Shown: positions 17,478 through 22,743 of the stretch, in pieces | Position numbering within the stretch: position 1 is the stretch's first letter | How the letters are laid out: every line of letters begins with the position of its first letter | Source of the DNA: a virus | Lineage: Duplodnaviria; Heunggongvirae; Uroviricota; Caudoviricetes | DNA length: 30,766 nt | Direction: 5' to 3' (one strand) | Virus record (IMG/VR): IMGVR_UViG_2537561688_000008 | Position numbers and translations under genes: made by a program | The notes under the pieces: model-generated | Told to the model about the DNA's origin: nothing | Databases searched by the model: none | What the model saw: only the letters and a program-made list of their open reading frames with translations

Positions 17478-18005
17478 ATGCAGCATTTGATAAATATAAC
17501 GGTGGGTAATCCAAAAACGGTTGAACAATATCAATTGACAAAGGACTTTGATGTTGTCTGGTTTTTTTCAGAAGATGGTAAGAACTGGTACGAAGAACAA
17601 AAGTATTTTGCTGATGACACGATAAAAATAGCGTACGACAAAGATAATATTATCCGCTATGTGGAAAAGGATGTGACAGCTATCAGACCAGATGGATTAA
17701 GTGTGGTTGAAGTGGCGGATATTACTGCTAACCGACGGGCGGACATTTCAGGGAACTGGATGTTTAAGGACGGCAAAGTGATTAAACGCATTTATACGGC
17801 AGATGAATTGCAGCAGCAGGCAGAAAACCGGAAAGCCAGACTTCTTGCAGATGCTGAATCCGTGATTTTGCCACTGGAGCGCGCTGTCAGGCTGAACATG
17901 GCAACAGATGAGGAGCGTAGCCGACTGGAAGCATGGGAACGCTACAGTGTTCTGGTCAGCCGTGTGGATCCTGCAAATCCTGAATGGCCGGAAATGCCGC
18001 AATAA
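17478..18005 (+). CDS. G: tail fiber assembly chaperone (P2 gpG-like)
   Basis: 175-aa ORF directly after H, as in P2. Confidence 0.85.
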
Positions 18006-18480
18006 GTTGTATAAGCTCTGGTGTGAGATTACATATCTATGGCACAGAGTAAAGCCTAATCTGACAGTCCGCTCTGTGCCAAGAGCGGACGTTACTACTA
18101 CTCGACCTAAAGTAAAGCAATTGTACTCATTAAATAGTGGTAATTGGGTCTGGTGCTTAATCGAACGAAATCTCATGTTAGGCGAAAAAAACGTCTGAAA
18201 AATCGATTAACACATACACCTGTGTACTATGGCCGTTATTCAATTTAAAAGGAACCATTTCCGATATGATTCACTGTCCATAATGTTTTGATTTATTAAA
18301 AAAGAGCCTTAGAGTGTGAAACCATTACGTTGAGTGGCGAACACCATTAATAAATTCTGCTTATACTTACAGCATATATTATGTTCACGTCATATAACCA
18401 TGGCAAATAAGATATTGCACATCAAGCATGATTATGATAGTGATTACAAAAATGAAGAATCTTAGATAAAGGATTAGTAA

Positions 18481-19416
18481 GTGGTTACATATAATTCAAT
18501 GTTGTTACCCCCCCCTAAATCTTGGGACGAATTTGAGGATATGTGCAAAAGTTCATTCCAACTGCGATGGTCCAATCCTAATCTGAACAGACATGGACGG
18601 TCAGGGCAGCGGCAGGATGGAGTTGATGTATATGGTGATGACTCTCTTGGGCGTTTCGTTGGAATTCAGTGTAAAAATACAGTATCAGGAATCAGTACGG
18701 CGACAATCGATGATGAATTACTCAAGGCTGAAAAATTTCGCCCAAAAATTACGGTTCTTTACATCGCTACGACAGCGCCCAGGGATGTTAGCATTCAGCG
18801 CTATGTAAGAACACTCAATGATGCCAGACAATTAAAAGGCCTGTTTCCTGTCGATGTGGTTTTCTGGGAGGATATTAGCTTTGATTTAAGCAAAGACCCA
18901 GCTGTACTCAAAATGTACTACCCGCAAATGTTCGAACGACACCAACCGACGAGGGAAGAATTTTTGCGCAAGAGAGATATCTCAAATTTGTCGACATTGT
19001 TGAATGTTATTGATTTTCATTCAACAATAGAACATTTGCAGTGGGGCGCAAAATACATTCATTCATTAATTATTGAAGAATACGATAATATTTTGAACAT
19101 TTTAAACTCACCTGTTTTTCAACTGAATGATACAGCTTTAAAGAATGTTACAATTGATTTTGCAACGGCCTGGCGTGATCTAATTATCTTGTTTAGAAAA
19201 GCTCCATATAATTATTCAGCACCAAATGATACTTTTAGTTTTATAAATCCCGGTGACCACTGTCGAAATCAGGAGGAAAGCGATTTATACGACGAAATCA
19301 CGCATAGCATGAGTAATCTCAAAGATAAAATTAGTACTTTTTGTGACTTTATAAATAATCACTACCATGAAATAAACTTAACCGAAACGAGCGCGCAAGC
19401 CAGGAAATATTATTAA
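18481..19416 (+). CDS. Hypothetical protein with N-terminal Mrr-like restriction endonuclease (PD-(D/E)xK, D...QxK) motif and a C-terminal domain of unknown function (cargo island 2)
   Basis: Intact 311-aa ORF with a GTG start at 18481 and AAAGGA 7 nt upstream (alternative ATG at 18499). N-terminal segment ...WDEFEDMCKSS...GQRQDGVDVYGDDSLGRFVGIQCKN... fits the Mrr catalytic pattern (acidic, DGxD, then hydrophobic-QCK). AT-rich; lies between G and FI. Confidence 0.7.
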   Translation: MVTYNSMLLPPPKSWDEFEDMCKSSFQLRWSNPNLNRHGRSGQRQDGVDVYGDDSLGRFVGIQCKNTVSGISTATIDDELLKAEKFRPKITVLYIATTAPRDVSIQRYVRTLNDARQLKGLFPVDVVFWEDISFDLSKDPAVLKMYYPQMFERHQPTREEFLRKRDISNLSTLLNVIDFHSTIEHLQWGAKYIHSLIIEEYDNILNILNSPVFQLNDTALKNVTIDFATAWRDLIILFRKAPYNYSAPNDTFSFINPGDHCRNQEESDLYDEITHSMSNLKDKISTFCDFINNHYHEINLTETSAQARKYY

Positions 19417-19693
19417 TACTTTTTTCTTAAGGGCTGCACTCATGGCCCTTAACACCGTTAGACTGTCATATTTTGCAATCGATACGCAGTTAGGTACTTT
19501 CTTGAAGTCCGTTCCTCGCTCATAGCTGACATTCAGCTCAATTAACTCGTCCACTTCGCTCCAACAGAAGGCGTAGCTAATCATACTGTGTATTAAAGAA
19601 AGGAGAAACGATCATGTTGAGTACAAAAAACACGAAAGACCATGATAAGGAAAATATGCGTAGAGTGACTTAGTTTATTGATTTAAATAATAT

Positions 19694-19870
19694 TTATGGG
19701 GGTAAGTGCTTTGAATAAAAAAACAAAAATTGAGAAGATTTAGCTAGTGCCAAAATAATTTGGACACCGCCCGTCATCAGACCCGCTACTACACTTATCA
19801 CCCCAGCCCAAAAAGTTTCAATGAAACAAGATACATATAGTAGTACTACATGGCGGAATAATTTACTCAT
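19694..19870 (-). CDS. Small hydrophobic (probable membrane) protein, 58 aa
   Basis: Minus-strand ATG at 19870 preceded by TAAGGAG with a 6-nt spacer. Product MSKLFRHVVLLYVSCFIETFWAGVISVVAGLMTGGVQIILALAKSSQFLFFYSKHLPP has a clear transmembrane-like segment. The ORF could extend upstream to 19999 (101 aa), but that start has no RBS. Confidence 0.45.
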   Translation of the reverse strand: MSKLFRHVVLLYVSCFIETFWAGVISVVAGLMTGGVQIILALAKSSQFLFFYSKHLPP

Positions 19871-20200
19871 AGGCTTCTCCTTACTGACGTAATCGTTAAG
19901 TAACACGTTGAGGTAACGGATAAATGCGACTATTGGGAGAGCTGTGATGAGAATTGTAGGCATAGGAATCGAACCTATGGATGCACTAGCTAAATTCACT
20001 CTTCACGAATTATACAGCATTGTAGTGAGTTTGTAAATACACGCCCCAAAAGTCAATCAGTCCGCTCCATGAATGTTGTGTCAGTACTACTAAAGTTAAA
20101 CATGCTAAAATAGGTTCCCAATATTCGTGGGTACAATCACTATCTGTGTAACTGGCGGAAGCGCTGGCATAACGACGATGCCTATTCGGGGGGCTTTAAT

Positions 20201-21067
20201 ATGGTCCGTTTTAACTTACTAGAAAATGCGTTGGATTCAGTGGAAACCGGGCTGGACTACTTTAACAAAGCGCTAGAAGGGCATGATCGACGTGACTACA
20301 AACAGTGCCTGCTTAACCTCTTTCAGGCCGCTGAGCTATTGTTGAAGGCCGTAGTTTCGCGCAATGGGTCTGGAGCGATTTTTAATCCAGCATCGCTTCA
20401 AGAAAAATGTGTGGATCCGGCGCATCCAACCGAGTCAGAATTACACCAGTGTAAATCTGTCAACGTCAACCAGCTTTGTAAGCTGTTAAAGACATATTAC
20501 CCAGCCGAATTTTCTGAATCTGCATTACAAATGATGAAAACGGTGGGTCAGTTGCGTAATAACCTTCAGCATTTTGCCCTTGAGGTTCGTCCGCAAGAAC
20601 TGGCAATGCAACTGAGTGAACTGTACCAACAAATTTTTCGTCCCGCATTCGTCATAATTCAGTCAGATGAGACCGAAAATTCATGGAACTCTGATTTACG
20701 TCAAGACATCATCGCTCTTGAGCAACAATTCCTTGATATAACTGTTAACCAGGAATACACCCTTGCACTTTGTCCCGTTTGTGAGAGTTTTTCACATTTT
20801 ATCCTTTACCAAAGTGAAAGCTTTCCGGCACGGACTCACTGTATCTGTTGTGGTTTCAGCCTGAATAATCTGCAAACTTGGGATTTTCAGGAATGTCCTG
20901 AATGTAGTGTCCCATCCGTAATTTATTTACCGGAACAAAGGGTCGGTGTCTGTCTCTGGTATAAATGTGAATACAGCAAGATGGATGGTTTTGTTCCTAT
21001 GGAGCCTTGTGAATGTGGTGCATTCCGGATGGAAGGTCATTGCAGTAACTGCGATCTTGAGGAATAG
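20201..21067 (+). CDS. Hypothetical protein with N-terminal HEPN-like helical domain (Rx4H motif) and C-terminal cysteine-rich (multi-CxxC) zinc-ribbon-like region (cargo island 2)
   Basis: Intact 288-aa ORF. Helical N-terminal part contains LRNNLQHF (R-x4-H). The C-terminal ~110 aa carry paired cysteines (CPVC, CICC, CPEC, C-x-C, CSNC). AT-rich. Confidence 0.65.
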   Translation: MVRFNLLENALDSVETGLDYFNKALEGHDRRDYKQCLLNLFQAAELLLKAVVSRNGSGAIFNPASLQEKCVDPAHPTESELHQCKSVNVNQLCKLLKTYYPAEFSESALQMMKTVGQLRNNLQHFALEVRPQELAMQLSELYQQIFRPAFVIIQSDETENSWNSDLRQDIIALEQQFLDITVNQEYTLALCPVCESFSHFILYQSESFPARTHCICCGFSLNNLQTWDFQECPECSVPSVIYLPEQRVGVCLWYKCEYSKMDGFVPMEPCECGAFRMEGHCSNCDLEE

Positions 21068-21430
21068 TAAAATCGTCCGATGAGAATGTACAGCAGCCTG
21101 GTCGATGATTTCTTGATGAATCGCTGAATTATCCGGTATTACTTGACAACTAAATCGCACATTTCTGTTTCTGGCAATTTGAAAGGTTTACTCTATGCCC
21201 CAGAATTCAGCACATACATAAAAACACCATTTCAGAACGCGTCTTGATCCAAAGAACGACTGTATGATAGATAGGCGTCGTCGTGAGGACAGGAATGATC
21301 TACCCCCCGTTATTCATACAGAATGCTGTTAGTAATGTCCGCAGATCGCTCAAAGCAGACTGTCAGATTTGATAGCGTTTGGGCTATGTAAGTAGCCAGT
21401 TGGAGAATGAGTGAGTGCAAATCAGGACTG

Positions 21431-21460
21431 GCGGGCGAATTGCCCGCATTTTCTTTATCT
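21431..21460 (+). terminator. Rho-independent terminator between cargo island 2 and the FI operon
   Basis: GCGGGC-gaatt-GCCCGC stem-loop followed by attttctttatct (T-rich). Confidence 0.5.
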
Positions 21461-21552
21461 GTTGTTTCATCCACTGACCAGCCAGGTCAAATAGCGTCTC
21501 ATGCACTGCCCAACAGAAAATAGTTGCACCCATTAACCACGGAGTTAAACGG

Positions 21553-22743
21553 ATGAGTGACTATCATCACGGCGTGCAGGTGCTGGAGATTAACGACGGC
21601 ACCCGCGTCATTTCCACTGTATCCACTGCCATTGTCGGCATGGTCTGCACGGCCAGCGATGCGGATGCGGAAACCTTCCCCCTCAATAAACCTGTGCTGA
21701 TTACCAATGTGCAGAGCGCAATTGCAAAGGCCGGTAAAAAAGGCACGCTGGCGGCATCGTTGCAGGCCATCGCTGACCAGTCAAAACCGGTCACCGTTGT
21801 CGTGCGCGTGGAAGACGGCACCGGCGACGACGAAGAAACGAAACTTGCGCAGACCGTTTCCAATATCATCGGCACCACCGACGAAAACGGTCAGTACACC
21901 GGACTGAAAGCCCTGCTGGCGGCGGAGTCAGTAACCGGTGTTAAACCGCGTATTCTCGGCGTGCCGGGACTGGACACCAAAGAGGTGGCTGTTGCACTGG
22001 CATCAGTCTGTCAGAAGCTGCGCGCTTTCGGGTATATCAGCGCATGGGGCTGTAAAACCATTTCCGAGGTGAAAGCCTACCGCCAGAATTTCAGCCAGCG
22101 TGAGCTGATGGTCATCTGGCCGGATTTCCTCGCATGGGATACGGTCAGCAGCACCACCGCCACCGCGTATGCCACCGCCCGTGCGCTGGGGCTGCGTGCT
22201 AAAATCGACCAGGAGCAGGGCTGGCATAAAACGTTGTCCAACGTCGGGGTAAATGGTGTTACCGGCATCAGCGCATCTGTATTCTGGGATTTGCAGGAGT
22301 TCGGCACCGATGCTGACCTGCTTAACGAGTCAGGCGTCACTACGCTGATTCGCCGCGACGGTTTCCGCTTCTGGGGTAACCGTACCTGCTCTGATGACCC
22401 GCTGTTCCTCTTTGAAAACTATACCCGCACCGCGCAGGTGCTGGCCGACACGATGGCTGAGGCGCACATGTGGGCGGTGGACAAGCCCATCACCGCAACG
22501 CTGATTCGCGACATCGTTGACGGCATCAATGCCAAATTCGTGAGCTGAAAACAAACGGCTATATCGTGGATGCGACCTGCTGGTTCAGCGAAGAATCCAA
22601 CGATGCGGAAACCCTCAAGGCCGGAAAACTGTATATCGACTACGACTATACACCGGTGCCTCCTCTTGAAAACCTGACCCTGCGCCAGCGTATTACCGAT
22701 AAATACCTGGCAAATCTGGTCACTTCGGTTAACAGCAATTAAG
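21553..22743 (+). pseudogene. FI: tail sheath protein (P2 gpFI-like) with C-terminal frameshift
   Basis: 331-aa ORF (21553-22548) is followed without a gap by a second frame encoding ...ELKTNGYIVDATCWFSEESNDAETLKAGKLYIDYDYTPVPP... up to 22743; the combined span matches a ~396-aa sheath protein. Confidence 0.7.

What the first reader, a model, noticed from the sequence alone, without database searches (positions are those of the whole stretch)
19614..19870. Convergent pair of tiny genes with strong ribosome-binding sites between the two large cargo genes
On the minus strand a 58-aa hydrophobic protein (19694-19870) is preceded by TAAGGAG with ideal spacing. On the plus strand a 19-codon ORF (19614-19673, MLSTKNTKDHDKENMRRVT) is preceded by AAAGGAGA. 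The two converge and end about 20 bp apart. Small membrane peptides are typical toxin or effector components, and the micro-ORF could be a regulatory leader.
Basis: seen in the sequence. Interest (0 to 1): 0.5.

Follow-up and report, generated by a model that had tools for sequence, protein, structure and literature searches.

The report
Small membrane-protein gene with panhandle mRNA
Only one of the two tiny genes is real: the minus-strand one belongs to an undescribed, self-contained gene family for a small membrane protein whose messenger RNA is tied shut by a conserved pairing of its 5' end with the end of its own coding region, as in known RNA-controlled toxins, while the 19-codon plus-strand ORF is a chance ORF.

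Summary

**The plus-strand 19-codon ORF (19614-19673) is not a gene.**
- Its start codon is AGG in four related lineages.
- It is frameshifted in a 97%-identical E. coli allele.
- Its AGGAG is GGGG in most relatives.
- SD+ATG pairs occur at chance frequency in this window.

**The minus-strand ORF is real and is part of a ~450-490 bp autonomous cassette (~19550/19594-20037).**
- The cassette has its own sigma-70-like promoter.
- It sits beside unrelated neighbours in prophages and islands of several Enterobacterales genera. These include a HEPN gene, DUF6037, a NERD-helicase and ATPase+HNH.
- It also sits at tRNA-Pro attachment junctions.
- The reading frame stays open, and looks coding, upstream to GUG 19999 or AUG 19963. 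This adds a first hydrophobic helix with an always-kept Arg.
- The strong internal SD+AUG (19870) is also conserved, which suggests two in-frame products of 58 and 89-101 aa.

**The mRNA has a conserved fold.**
- Its first 17 nt pair with the codons for A-L-A-K near the ORF end. The pairing holds in 13 lineages, with compensatory changes in 9 of 17 pairs among the 11 counted formally.
- A T-loop-like hairpin follows the 5' strand.

No family in Pfam, NCBIfam, PHROGs, PADLOC, Rfam or PDB matches. The best reading is a tightly RNA-controlled, probably toxic membrane protein (hok/aapA-like logic). No antisense antitoxin was found.

The parts
20009..20037 (-). Sigma-70-type promoter of the small gene: -35 TTTACA (20037-20032), 17-nt spacer, -10 TATAAT (20014-20009). 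The predicted transcription start is near 20002.
   Evidence: The consensus scan scores it 11/12. Homology with loci that have a different neighbour gene ends at or within about 25 nt upstream of the -35. A promoter-like site falls at the same distance from the internal AUG (predicted start -131 to -143) in the distant lineages L027, L028, L030, L031 and L033. No transcript data were available.
19983..19999 (-). L strand: the first 17 nt of the predicted mRNA (GUGAAUUUAGCUAGUGC). It contains the first in-frame start candidate, GUG 19999, and pairs with the R strand.
   Evidence: In the window, 13 pairs are perfect (19995-19983 with 19750-19738).
19962..19978 (-). T-loop-like hairpin AUAGG-UUCGAUU-CCUAU, 4 nt after L. 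Its 3' strand carries the second in-frame start candidate, AUG 19963.
   Evidence: The stem co-varies (AUAGG/CCUAU, AUGGG/CCCAU, AUGAG/CUCAU, GUGAG/CUCAU) and the loop stays UUCRAHU in L008, L025, L028, L030, L031 and L033. In 11 sequences 88% of cells pair and 3 of 6 pairs show double changes. The hairpin is absent in L027, L053 and L067 and degraded in L004.
19871..19999 (-). In-frame N-terminal extension: 43 codons from GUG 19999, or 31 from AUG 19963. It encodes a first hydrophobic helix (TILITALPIVAFIRYLNVLL) with a conserved Arg (R28 in 101-aa numbering).
   Evidence: The frame is open in all 19 distinct close sequences. Variable states at codon positions 1/2/3 are 19/9/24, like the core (21/8/21). 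The helix and the Arg are kept in homologues of 31-51% identity. L014-type sequences carry a 12-nt in-frame insertion.
19877..19883 (-). Shine-Dalgarno sequence UAAGGAG for the internal start AUG 19870.
   Evidence: It is invariant in the close family. AAGGAG or AAGGAGG is present in L027, L028 and L031. In L030 a G-rich SD (CAGGGGGUGCAUAUG) is kept although the K-E-x-P residues are replaced. RNAalifold places it in a local hairpin: 19892-19885 with 19869-19863.
19694..19870 (-). It comprises the core SCFIETFWAGVISVVAGLMTGGVQIILALAK and an unconserved tail.
   Evidence: PGAP annotates it as a hypothetical protein. Homologues were found. E61 and W64 (E18 and W21 of the short form) are invariant. 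The tail after ...AKSSQF changes by frameshifts in T runs.
19734..19750 (-). R strand (GCACUAGCUAAAUCUUC): the codons for A-L-A-K and what follows. It pairs with L and closes a ~266-nt panhandle.
   Evidence: All third codon positions here are invariant in the close family. Homology of the L014/L024/L025 type ends right after it.
19789..19809 (-). 3' strand of a second predicted long-range helix. Its partner is 19959-19939, just after the hairpin.
   Evidence: It appears in the RNAalifold consensus of 9 close-family sequences, mostly with one-sided (G-U compatible) changes. This support is weaker than for the L-R helix.
19550..19693 (-). 3' flank of the cassette, carried along with the gene. 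The block 19590-19639 is better conserved than the rest. No terminator or conserved fold was found.
   Evidence: Boundaries come from blastn against loci with other neighbours. RNAalifold predicts no pairs, and the terminator scan finds nothing on the minus strand.
19614..19673 (+). The 19-codon micro-ORF of the finding. It is a chance ORF inside the cassette's 3' flank, not a gene.
   Evidence: start codon lost, frameshift, RBS not kept, and SD+ATG pairs at chance frequency.

Best explanation
**Shown.**
- Window ~19550/19594-20037 (minus strand) is an autonomous, horizontally mobile cassette of about 450-490 bp. Weak similarity continues about 25 nt upstream of the -35.
- It encodes a member of an undescribed family of small inner-membrane-type proteins.
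- The family's coding frame is conserved from the mRNA's 5' end. A first hydrophobic helix carries an always-kept Arg. After a short basic loop comes a second long hydrophobic helix with invariant Glu and Trp in the motif ETxWAG. The conserved part ends at (A/V)LAK.
- A strong internal SD+AUG (19883-19868) is conserved as a nucleotide signal.
- The first 17 nt of the RNA pair with the A-L-A-K codons 216-259 nt downstream. This holds in 13 lineages, with many compensatory changes.
- In most lineages a T-loop-like hairpin holding the AUG at 19963 follows the 5' strand.
- The plus-strand micro-ORF is a chance ORF.

**Inferred (mechanism).**
- The gene is transcribed from its own sigma-70 promoter in the lysogen, against the direction of the phage late genes.
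- The finished mRNA folds into a closed panhandle. This buries the 5' end and the 5'-proximal start codons, and holds the internal SD/AUG in a local hairpin.
- Little protein is therefore made unless the fold is opened. Opening could occur co-transcriptionally, by cleavage, or by stress or infection that changes RNA decay or translation.
- Two in-frame products are expected: a long form (89-101 aa, two or three membrane helices) and a short form (58 aa, lacking helix 1).
- I think the protein is membrane-active and harmful when over-made. That would make the cassette work like the toxin half of hok/sok or aapA/IsoA type I systems, serving element maintenance or abortive infection.
- Toxicity and any antitoxin are not shown.
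For: **The gene is real.**
- PGAP annotates it.
- Close alleles differ only by in-frame indels.
- A direct search found 11 homologues. A profile search of 1.84 billion representatives found 20 clusters.
- E61 and W64 are invariant, and R28 is present in all 15 members that include helix 1.
- Variable states at codon positions 1/2/3 total 43/19/54 over 86 codons.

**The cassette is autonomous.**
- blastn homology of 74-87% covers window ~19550-20037 only, in loci whose neighbour is different. The neighbours are DUF6037 (L006, L007), a 1615-aa NERD-helicase (L008-10), ATPase+HNH (L016), an acyltransferase (L025) and a lambdoid nin region (L028).
- It is single-copy in 28 of 5426 complete E. coli genomes.

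**The promoter.**
- It scores 11/12 and falls at the same position in distant lineages.

**The panhandle.**
- The L-R helix keeps 14-17 of 17 pairs in 13 lineages.
- In the formal count on 11 of them, 92% of cells pair and 9 of 17 pairs have changes on both sides. None of 500 shuffles reached this, and slid registers pair only 23-43%.
- In the 7 distant lineages the non-Watson-Crick cells are 14 G-U, 2 A-C and 2 other. This points to the sense RNA rather than to DNA repeats.
- The helix closes the minimum-free-energy fold in 8 lineages and appears in the RNAalifold consensus.
- Third codon positions in the ORF are 86-92% identical where the flanks are 59-84%. This fits a double constraint from coding and RNA structure.

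**The T-loop hairpin co-varies**.

**The internal SD+AUG is kept even where the residues change** (L030).

**Precedent.**
- A 5'-3' long-distance interaction that keeps toxin mRNAs inert is established for hok and aapA (PMC6733600).

**Setting.**
- The cassette lies among defence-type and TA genes in mobile elements.
Against: - No transcript, translation or toxicity data exist. The promoter, the transcription start and both protein forms are predictions.
- No antisense promoter is conserved across the family. Promoter-like sites on the opposite strand (predicted starts at about +100, 0 and +216 from AUG 19870) occur only in subsets. A defining part of type I systems is therefore missing.
- The long form (89-101 aa, with specific conserved Arg/Glu/Trp) is larger and more 'designed' than typical type I toxins. 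It could have a specific non-toxic role.
- The L-R helix buries the 5'-proximal starts, not the strong internal SD. The hairpin predicted around that SD is short and shows only one-sided changes.
- The 3' partner lies inside the ORF. Translating ribosomes would open the helix, unlike the 3'-UTR partner in hok.
- I chose the L and R registers by eye around conserved codons, which biases the pair counts somewhat.
- Three of the seven distant lineages came from a DNA pattern that required AAGGAG-ATG. They cannot count as independent evidence for the SD.
Confidence: 0.5

Rival explanations
1. A harmless prophage 'moron' membrane protein. It would be expressed in the lysogen and act in superinfection exclusion or immunity, for example by blocking DNA entry at an inner-membrane component as T4 Imm or HK97 gp15 do. 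The RNA panhandle would serve mainly to stabilise or tune the mRNA.
For: - It lies at classic moron positions with its own promoter, opposite to the phage operons. These are the P2 cargo hotspot between tail-fibre assembly and sheath genes, the attR end of elements integrated at tRNA-Pro and a lambdoid nin region.
- Its size and its two or three hydrophobic helices fit such proteins.
- The specifically conserved Arg, Glu and Trp suggest a defined partner rather than generic membrane damage.
Against: - It has no sequence or fold relation to any known exclusion protein.
- To my knowledge, such genes are not known to need an elaborate closed mRNA with buried start codons.
- The cassette also occurs outside prophages, in L004 (Serratia chromosome island) and L006 (next to conjugation and ccdAB genes).
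Confidence: 0.25
2. The small protein is a subunit of the neighbouring defence system, such as a membrane anchor or effector. In this window the partner would be the divergent 288-aa HEPN-like protein (20201-21067).
For: - In all 28 E. coli genomes that carry it, the cassette and the HEPN-like gene are adjacent and divergent. They move together as window 19505-21359 into a second kind of island.
- The same pairing occurs in Serratia, Phytobacter and L012.
- The 288-aa protein matches the PADLOC defence candidate PDC-S64 at 4e-21.
Against: - The cassette occurs without that gene, next to unrelated genes, in at least seven other contexts.
- Homology breaks at the cassette's own promoter.
- A shared subunit that serves HEPN, DUF6037, NERD-helicase and ATPase-HNH neighbours alike is possible but unproven.
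Confidence: 0.1
3. The L and R repeats act in DNA rather than RNA. They could be recombinase or integrase binding sites, an invertible segment, or the ends of a miniature mobile element. This would explain why the cassette moves and why it sits next to an attachment core.
For: - L and R are inverted repeats that bound the minimal conserved unit. In L014/L024/L025 homology ends right after R, which abuts the tRNA-Pro core.
- Terminal repeats of mobile elements also co-vary.
- L016 has a serine recombinase gene next to the cassette.
Against: - Non-Watson-Crick positions are G-U on the sense strand 14 times against A-C twice in the distant lineages. That asymmetry is meaningless for DNA sites.
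- The conserved promoter lies outside the repeats but moves with them.
- Both repeats lie inside a conserved reading frame that an inversion would destroy.
- All 28 E. coli copies are collinear with their flanks.
Confidence: 0.05
4. One reading: two convergent tiny genes, a 58-aa toxin plus a translated 19-codon regulatory leader.
For: Both ORFs and both SD-like sequences exist in this window. The DNA block under the start of the micro-ORF (19590-19639) is better conserved than its surroundings.
Against: - The micro-ORF's ATG is AGG in L006 and L008-11.
- It is frameshifted in L003/L023/L038/L065.
- Its GGAG is GGGG in most relatives.
- The whole region is absent from the distant lineages.
- SD+ATG pairs are at chance frequency, and PGAP does not call it.
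Confidence: 0.03

Closest known systems
hok/sok (plasmid R1 and chromosomal hok genes) and aapA/IsoA of Helicobacter: type I toxin mRNAs locked by a 5'-3' long-distance interaction
   Same: - A small hydrophobic protein with its own constitutive-looking promoter and a long structured 5' region.
- The extreme 5' end of the mRNA pairs with a far-downstream segment, and covariation supports this, as it did for hok (Gultyaev et al. 1997, cited in PMC6733600).
- An upstream reading frame precedes the strong toxin start (mok in hok).
- It is carried by mobile elements.
   Different: - There is no sequence relation (Pfam Hok_gef, NCBIfam and Rfam give no hit).
- No conserved antisense RNA was found.
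- The 3' partner lies inside the ORF (the A-L-A-K codons), not in the 3' UTR.
- The helix covers 5'-proximal start codons rather than the main SD.
- The upstream frame is in frame and encodes a conserved membrane helix.
- The long product (89-101 aa) is about twice the size of Hok and three times that of AapA1.
Dual-start holin genes (lambda S105/S107 with the sdi stem-loop)
   Same: One reading frame for a small membrane protein has two conserved in-frame starts. An RNA structure at the upstream start could set the ratio of the two products.
   Different: - The starts are 31-43 codons apart rather than 2, so the forms differ by a whole membrane helix.
- The gene is not in the lysis cassette and also occurs outside phages.
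- It has no charged C-terminal tail and no holin family match.
- These are comparisons from general knowledge, not tests.
Prophage moron membrane proteins that exclude superinfecting phages (T4 Imm, HK97 gp15, P22 Sie)
   Same: Size, hydrophobic helices, own promoter, position in prophage cargo sites, and expression expected in the lysogen.
   Different: There is no homology or fold match. No comparable mRNA architecture is known to me for these genes.
tRNA T-arm and tRNA-like elements (tmRNA tRNA-like domain, tRNA-derived attP sequences)
   Same: - The 5-bp stem with a 7-nt loop UUCRAHU matches the T-arm consensus and co-varies.
- R (GGCAC-UAGC) resembles the 5' end of tRNA-Pro proL (GGCACGUAGC).
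- In L025 the stretch from GGCAC to the tRNA-derived GCGCACC is 28 nt, the same length as the corresponding stretch in proL.
   Different: - ARAGORN finds no tRNA, and Rfam's tRNA model scores only 18 bits in L014, below its threshold of 29.
- The order of elements (5' strand, T-arm, long insert, 3' strand) is not that of a tRNA or tmRNA.
- The hairpin is missing in three lineages.

Membership tests
Type I toxin-antitoxin system | A small hydrophobic toxin ORF (usually under ~60 aa) with a membrane helix | tested here: met
   The short form is 58 aa. Hydropathy and the AlphaFold model give long hydrophobic helices. The conserved in-frame long form of 89-101 aa is atypical.
Type I toxin-antitoxin system | An antisense (cis or trans) RNA antitoxin that pairs with the toxin mRNA | tested here: inconclusive
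   A promoter scan of the opposite strand in 15 lineages found sites only in subsets (predicted starts at about +100, 0 and +216 from the internal AUG) and none conserved family-wide. Rfam gave no sRNA hit. No RNA-seq was available. Trans-encoded antitoxins were not searched.
Type I toxin-antitoxin system | An mRNA fold that keeps the full-length transcript translationally inert (for example a 5'-3' long-distance interaction) | tested here: inconclusive
   The 5'-3' helix is strongly supported. It is shown to cover only the 5'-proximal starts. Occlusion of the main SD rests on a short predicted hairpin. Translation itself was not measured.
Type I toxin-antitoxin system | Growth arrest or killing when the toxin is expressed without the antitoxin | not testable with these tools
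   This needs inducible expression of the 58-aa and 89/101-aa forms.
Hok/Gef family (hok/sok) | Sequence membership: Pfam Hok_gef protein, Rfam hok/Sok RNAs | tested here: not met
   No Pfam, NCBIfam or Rfam match at permissive thresholds.
Phage holin | A holin family match, position in the lysis cassette next to an endolysin, and a charged C-terminal tail | tested here: not met
   No Pfam or PHROG holin hit for any of 20 members. The gene lies in the cargo hotspot between tail genes and also in non-phage islands. Its C-terminal tail is unconserved and hydrophobic.
Component of the PDC-S64-like HEPN defence candidate (or another PADLOC system) | A model match, and obligate co-occurrence with the system's other gene(s) | tested here: not met
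   The small protein has no PADLOC hit. It occurs without the 288-aa gene in L006-L011, L016, L025, L027 and L028.
Translated regulatory leader peptide (for the 19-codon plus-strand ORF) | Start codon, reading frame and RBS conserved in homologous loci | tested here: not met
   The start is AGG in four lineages, a frameshift occurs in a 97%-identical allele, and the RBS is not kept.
tRNA or tRNA-like gene | A cloverleaf detectable by ARAGORN or the Rfam tRNA model | tested here: not met
   ARAGORN found none in the window or in 13 related loci. Rfam found none in the window. Only the T-arm-like hairpin is present. L014/L025 carry a true 3' fragment of tRNA-Pro downstream.

The most novel reading that the evidence does not exclude
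This would be a new class of mobile-element toxin or effector gene. One reading frame would give two membrane proteins, with and without helix 1, the Arg-bearing partner of the buried Glu. Their ratio would be set by a tRNA-derived RNA device. That device is a panhandle whose 3' strand descends from the 5' end of the tRNA-Pro copy in an attP site, plus a T-arm mimic that holds a start codon. Expression could then be coupled to tRNA-handling enzymes (RNase P, TruB/TrmA, CCA-adding enzyme) or to RNA damage during phage infection. The cassette would be a stand-alone abortive-infection or addiction switch with no antisense antitoxin.
Probability: 0.12. Interest if true: 0.85.

Novelty: new variant of a known kind. 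Interest (0 to 1): 0.6.

Why it matters
- If the model is right, E. coli and its relatives carry an unrecognised family of RNA-locked small membrane proteins on prophages and defence islands. It is rare: 28 of 5426 complete E. coli genomes, mostly ETEC and animal isolates.
- The family offers a clean, covariation-supported example of 5'-3' mRNA circularisation outside hok and aapA. It has two unusual features: a 3' strand inside the coding region, and a conserved in-frame dual start that adds or removes a whole membrane helix.
- It is directly testable with a few constructs.
- It is a caution for hotspot and defence-island annotation. A conserved ~0.5-kb cassette next to many different defence genes can be mistaken for a system component.
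- The link to tRNA-Pro attachment sites and the T-arm mimic hints at how attP-borne tRNA sequence can be recruited into gene regulation.

Tried and rejected
**Family and structure searches, all empty.**
- Pfam, NCBIfam, PHROGs and PADLOC on the 58-aa and 101-aa forms and on 20 family members gave no family.
- Rfam at E<=1 over 18000-21600 gave nothing relevant.
- A PDB sequence profile search and a Foldseek search against viral structures gave no relatives. The AlphaFold model is just two long helices (pLDDT 71).
- The cassette is absent from GenBank phage records. Plasmid records hold only 58-nt remnants, plus two Proteus mirabilis records of about 4.1 Mb, i.e. of chromosome size.
- Literature searches for PDC-S64 and for P2 hotspot contents gave nothing specific to this gene.

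**RNA features that were sought and not found.**
- No minus-strand intrinsic terminator after the stop codon.
- No conserved fold in the 3' flank.
- No antisense promoter conserved across the family.

**Ideas considered and rejected.**
- That the T-arm hairpin marks a tRNA gene or fragment in the window: ARAGORN and Rfam are negative.
- That L and R are DNA-level repeats or an invertible segment: rejected on the G-U versus A-C asymmetry and on the collinearity of all E. coli copies.
- That the 68-aa minus ORF 19378-19584 is a gene: it straddles the recombination joint at about 19505 and has no hits.

**Technical failures.**
- A profile-based locus search with the divergent alignment failed because no stretch was conserved enough.
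- About half of the metagenome pattern hits were false positives and were discarded.
Full report
**1. Setting**

The window is a P2-like prophage of E. coli. Over 18000-21600 it is 100% identical to several ETEC chromosomes, for example NZ_CP025916.

The finding lies in the cargo hotspot between the tail-fibre assembly gene (17478-18005) and the tail sheath gene (from 21553). The cargo consists of three parts:
- A 311-aa ORF (18481-19416). Its only family match is PHROG 8991, of unknown function.
- The small-ORF region.
- A 288-aa ORF (20201-21067). It has a weak HEPN-like N-terminus and a Cys-rich C-terminus, and it matches the PADLOC defence candidate PDC-S64 at 4e-21.

**2. The observation**

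AGGAG-N5-9-ATG occurs four times in the window, against 3.1 +/- 1.7 in shuffles. Such a pair therefore proves nothing by itself.

**3. The plus-strand micro-ORF is not a gene**

- In a 97-98% identical E. coli allele (L003, and L023/L038/L065), one A is missing from the A run after codon 5. This changes the frame.
- In L006, L008-L010 and L011 the ATG is AGG.
- In L012/L013 and L016 the peptide end differs.
- The GGAG of its RBS is GGGG in nearly all relatives and is gone in L016.
- The distant family members lack the region entirely.
- PGAP does not annotate it.

**4. The minus-strand ORF is real and belongs to an autonomous cassette**

PGAP annotates the ORF as 58, 57 or 56 aa in three E. 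coli alleles. These differ by in-frame 3-bp indels.

Window 19505-21359 (small ORF plus the HEPN-like gene) also occurs at 98.9% identity, without the 311-aa gene, in a different island of at least 15 other E. coli genomes. That island lies near a P4-type psu gene and a reverse transcriptase.

Beyond E. coli, the small gene has homologues in Serratia, Phytobacter, Dickeya, Mixta and Proteus, and in metagenomes. In those loci DNA homology of 74-87% is confined to window ~19550/19594-20037. The neighbour gene differs from locus to locus:
- The same 288-aa gene (L004, L005, L012).
- A 203-aa DUF6037 protein (L006, L007).
- A 1615-aa NERD-helicase (L008-L010).
- A 101-aa ORF near an ApeA-type HEPN gene (L011).
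- An ATPase plus a putative HNH nuclease, with a serine recombinase on the other side (L016).
- An acyltransferase at a prophage end (L025).

Homology stops at, or within about 25 nt upstream of, the -35 hexamer of a strong minus-strand promoter: TTTACA-17-TATAAT at 20037-20009, scoring 11/12.

The cassette is single-copy in 28 of 5426 complete E. coli genomes. It is absent from GenBank phage records.

**5. The reading frame is longer than 58 codons**

In all 19 distinct close sequences the frame is open from GTG 19999 through the codons for LALAK.

Variable states at codon positions 1/2/3:

| Segment | Codons | Pos 1 / 2 / 3 |
|---|---|---|
| First 12 codons | 1-12 | 3 / 2 / 9 |
| Up to the internal ATG | 13-43 | 19 / 9 / 24 |
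| Core | 44-86 | 21 / 8 / 21 |

The extension therefore looks as coding as the core. The most distant close relative (the L014/L025 type) carries a 12-nt in-frame insertion there.

A profile search of 1.84 billion representative proteins found 20 clusters. Their alignment shows the family plan:
- A first hydrophobic helix ending in L-x-x-x-R-[YF]-x-S. The Arg is R28 in 101-aa numbering and is present in all 15 members that include this part.
- A short basic loop, [NS]-K-E-x-P-M-N-K.
- A second hydrophobic stretch, S-C-x-x-E-T-x-W-A-G-x-x-S-V-x-A-G, with invariant E61 and W64.
- T-G-G, then [AV]-L-A-K.
- After that, nothing is conserved. In the close family the tail changes by frameshifts in T runs.

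AlphaFold gives two long helices, residues 13-40 and 46-97, with mean pLDDT 71. No Pfam, NCBIfam, PHROG, PADLOC, PDB or viral-structure relative exists for any member.

**6. The internal start is conserved as a nucleotide signal**

AAGGAG or AAGGAGG lies 6-7 nt before ATG in the window and in L027, L028 and L031. Those three were found through protein similarity, not through the SD. In L030 the residues K-E-x-P are replaced, yet a G-rich SD plus ATG remains (CAGGGGGTGCATATG).

Upstream start candidates vary:
- GTG at the first codon in most lineages, and ATG there in L028.
- ATG at 19963 in most. It is CTA in the L014 type, which keeps the GTG.
- L008 lacks the GTG and has a stop just upstream, so it can use only the ATG at the 19963 position.

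I infer two in-frame products. A long form of 89-101 aa contains helix 1. A short form of 58 aa starts at the strong SD.

**7. The mRNA panhandle**

The 17 nt from 19999 to 19983 (GUGAAUUUAGCUAGUGC, the L strand) begin about 3 nt after the predicted transcription start. They are complementary to 19750-19734 (GCACUAGCUAAAUCUUC, the R strand, the A-L-A-K codons). Thirteen pairs are perfect in the window.

The same pairing exists in every lineage examined, 216-259 nt apart, although the sequences differ:

| Lineage | L strand | R strand | Pairs |
|---|---|---|---|
| L027 | GUGCGUUUAGCCAGUAU | GUACUGGCUAAGCGCAC | 17/17 |
| L028 | AUGUACAUAGCUGGUGC | GCACUAGCUAUGUACAU | 17/17 |
| L030 | | | 16/17 |
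| L031 | | | 16/17 |
| L033 | | | 16/17 |
| L053 (one base pair shorter on both strands) | | | 16/16 |
| L067 (marine) | | | 16/17 |

The formal count on 11 ungapped sequences gave these results:
- 92% of cells pair.
- 9 of 17 pairs have changes on both sides.
- None of 500 shuffles reached the observed values.
- Slid registers pair only 23-43%.

In the seven distant lineages the non-Watson-Crick cells are 14 G-U, 2 A-C and 2 other. This asymmetry points to the sense RNA, not to DNA repeats or the antisense strand.

The helix closes the minimum-free-energy fold of the L-to-R RNA in eight lineages. It also heads the RNAalifold consensus of the close family. That consensus adds two further elements:
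- A second long-range helix, 19959-19939 with 19809-19789.
- A local hairpin around the SD and AUG 19870.

Both of these show only one-sided changes and are weaker evidence.

Third codon positions of the ORF are 86-92% identical in relatives whose promoter and 3' flank are only 59-84% identical. This is expected if RNA structure constrains the coding sequence.

Promoter-like sites fall at the same distance upstream of L in the window and in L027, L028, L030, L031 and L033. L is therefore most likely the very 5' end of the transcript.

Caveat: I set the L and R registers by eye around the conserved L-A-S and L-A-K codons.

**8. The T-loop-like hairpin**

Four nt after L lies AUAGG-UUCGAUU-CCUAU (19978-19962). 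The AUG at 19963 sits in its 3' strand.
- The 7-nt loop keeps the T-arm consensus UUCRAHU.
- The stem co-varies in L025, L028, L030, L031 and L033. In 11 sequences 88% of cells pair and 3 of 6 pairs have double changes.
- The hairpin is absent in L027, L053 and L067 and weakened in L004, so it is frequent but not universal.
- It is not a tRNA gene.

**9. Link to tRNA-Pro**

In L014/L024/L025, L033/L041 and L042, homology to the cassette ends right after R. What follows is the 3' part of a tRNA-Pro gene plus its terminator.

The 55 nt after the junction in L025 are 100% identical to the 3' 55 nt of E. coli proL. ARAGORN finds no complete tRNA in these loci. They therefore look like attR-type junctions of elements integrated in proL, with the small gene as the terminal gene.

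R (GGCAC-UAGC) resembles the proL 5' end (GGCACGUAGC). The stretch from GGCAC to the tRNA-derived GCGCACC is 28 nt in L025, the same length as in proL. The 3' end of the ORF may therefore descend from a tRNA copy in an attP site. This is an observation, not an explanation.

**10. What was sought and not found**

- No antisense promoter is conserved across the family. Sites with predicted starts at about +100, 0 and +216 from AUG 19870 occur in subsets only.
- No terminator follows the stop codon.
- The 3' flank has no conserved fold.
- Rfam gives no hit.

**11. Interpretation**

*Shown:* a conserved gene, an autonomous cassette, an extended frame, a conserved internal SD+AUG, a covariation-supported 5'-3' helix, and a spurious micro-ORF.

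*Inferred:* the finished mRNA is a closed, stable and poorly translated molecule. The protein is membrane-active and harmful if over-made. The cassette works like the toxin half of hok/sok or aapA/IsoA, where a 5'-3' long-distance interaction keeps the full-length mRNA inert (PMC6733600).

Arguments against filing it as a type I system:
- There is no antitoxin RNA and no homology to known families.
- The long form is conserved and specific-looking.
- The helix's 3' strand lies in the ORF.
- The helix covers the 5'-proximal starts rather than the main SD.

The main rival is a harmless exclusion-type moron protein. A role as a shared subunit of neighbouring defence genes is less likely, because the neighbours vary.

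**12. Verdict**

Novelty: a new variant of a known kind. It is an RNA-locked small membrane protein on mobile elements, from an undescribed family, with an in-frame dual start and a T-arm-like element.

Interest: 0.6.

Noticed in passing
L025:3330-3420; also L014:339-455, L033, L041, L042: In several family members the cassette ends right after the R strand. It is followed by the 3' 55 nt of tRNA-Pro (100% identical to E. coli proL) plus a terminator, so these look like attR-type junctions of proL-integrating elements. R (GGCAC-TAGC) resembles the proL 5' end (GGCACGTAGC), and in L025 the stretch from GGCAC to the tRNA-derived GCGCACC is 28 nt, as in proL. Rfam's tRNA model scores 18 bits there, below its threshold.
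   Followed up: partly
window 20201-21067 (+), moving together with 19505-20200: The 288-aa protein has a weak HEPN-like N-terminus and a Cys-rich, zinc-ribbon-like C-terminus. It matches the PADLOC candidate PDC-S64 (4e-21) and more weakly HEC-08 and PDC-S19. Together with the small-gene cassette it forms a 1.85-kb unit found at 98.9% identity in a second island type of at least 15 E. coli genomes.
   Followed up: partly
window 18481-19416 (+): The 311-aa cargo ORF has no Pfam, NCBIfam or PADLOC match, only PHROG 8991 of unknown function. It is present only in the P2-hotspot version of the locus, in 13 E. coli genomes.
   Followed up: no
window ~22537 (tail sheath gene, 21553-22743): Relative to NZ_CP025916, the window lacks one T in an AAATTT run. 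The sheath ORF therefore stops at 22548 (331 aa instead of 396). This is either a defective prophage or a sequencing error.
   Followed up: partly
window 19560-19617; L026:3001-3058 and five other E. coli records, mostly plasmids of ~160-207 kb plus one chromosome (H59-H64): A 58-nt piece of the cassette's 3' flank survives at 91-93% identity in six other E. coli records. In the one I inspected (L026, plasmid A of strain M3) it lies next to a truncated IS3-family element, so the cassette appears to have been there and to have been cut away.
   Followed up: partly
window 19378-19584 (-): This 68-aa ORF straddles the recombination joint at about 19505, where homology to the second island type begins. 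It has no family match and is probably spurious.
   Followed up: partly
window 19694-19735 (-), and the same place in L003, L004, L005: The C-terminal tail of the small protein changes frame between close alleles through length changes in T runs (T5-G-T7 in the window). This gives tails such as ...FLFFYSKHLPP, ...FLFFLLKALTPINII and ...FFFIQSTYTHKYYLNQ. The window allele also carries an extra CTA (Leu) codon in helix 2.
   Followed up: no
window 20038-20060 (-): A short motif, AATTGAYTTTTGGGR, lies about 5-25 nt upstream of the -35. It is shared by cassettes with different neighbours and could be an UP element or a regulator site.
   Followed up: no
L016:3492-4043: In Proteus mirabilis ATCC 29906 a serine recombinase or invertase gene lies immediately downstream of the cassette, on the opposite strand. 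An ATPase gene and a putative HNH nuclease gene lie upstream.
   Followed up: no
NZ_CP195949.1 (H15): In E. coli strain D7 an ISVsa5 (IS4-like) element is inserted within the 1.85-kb unit that carries the cassette and the HEPN gene.
   Followed up: no
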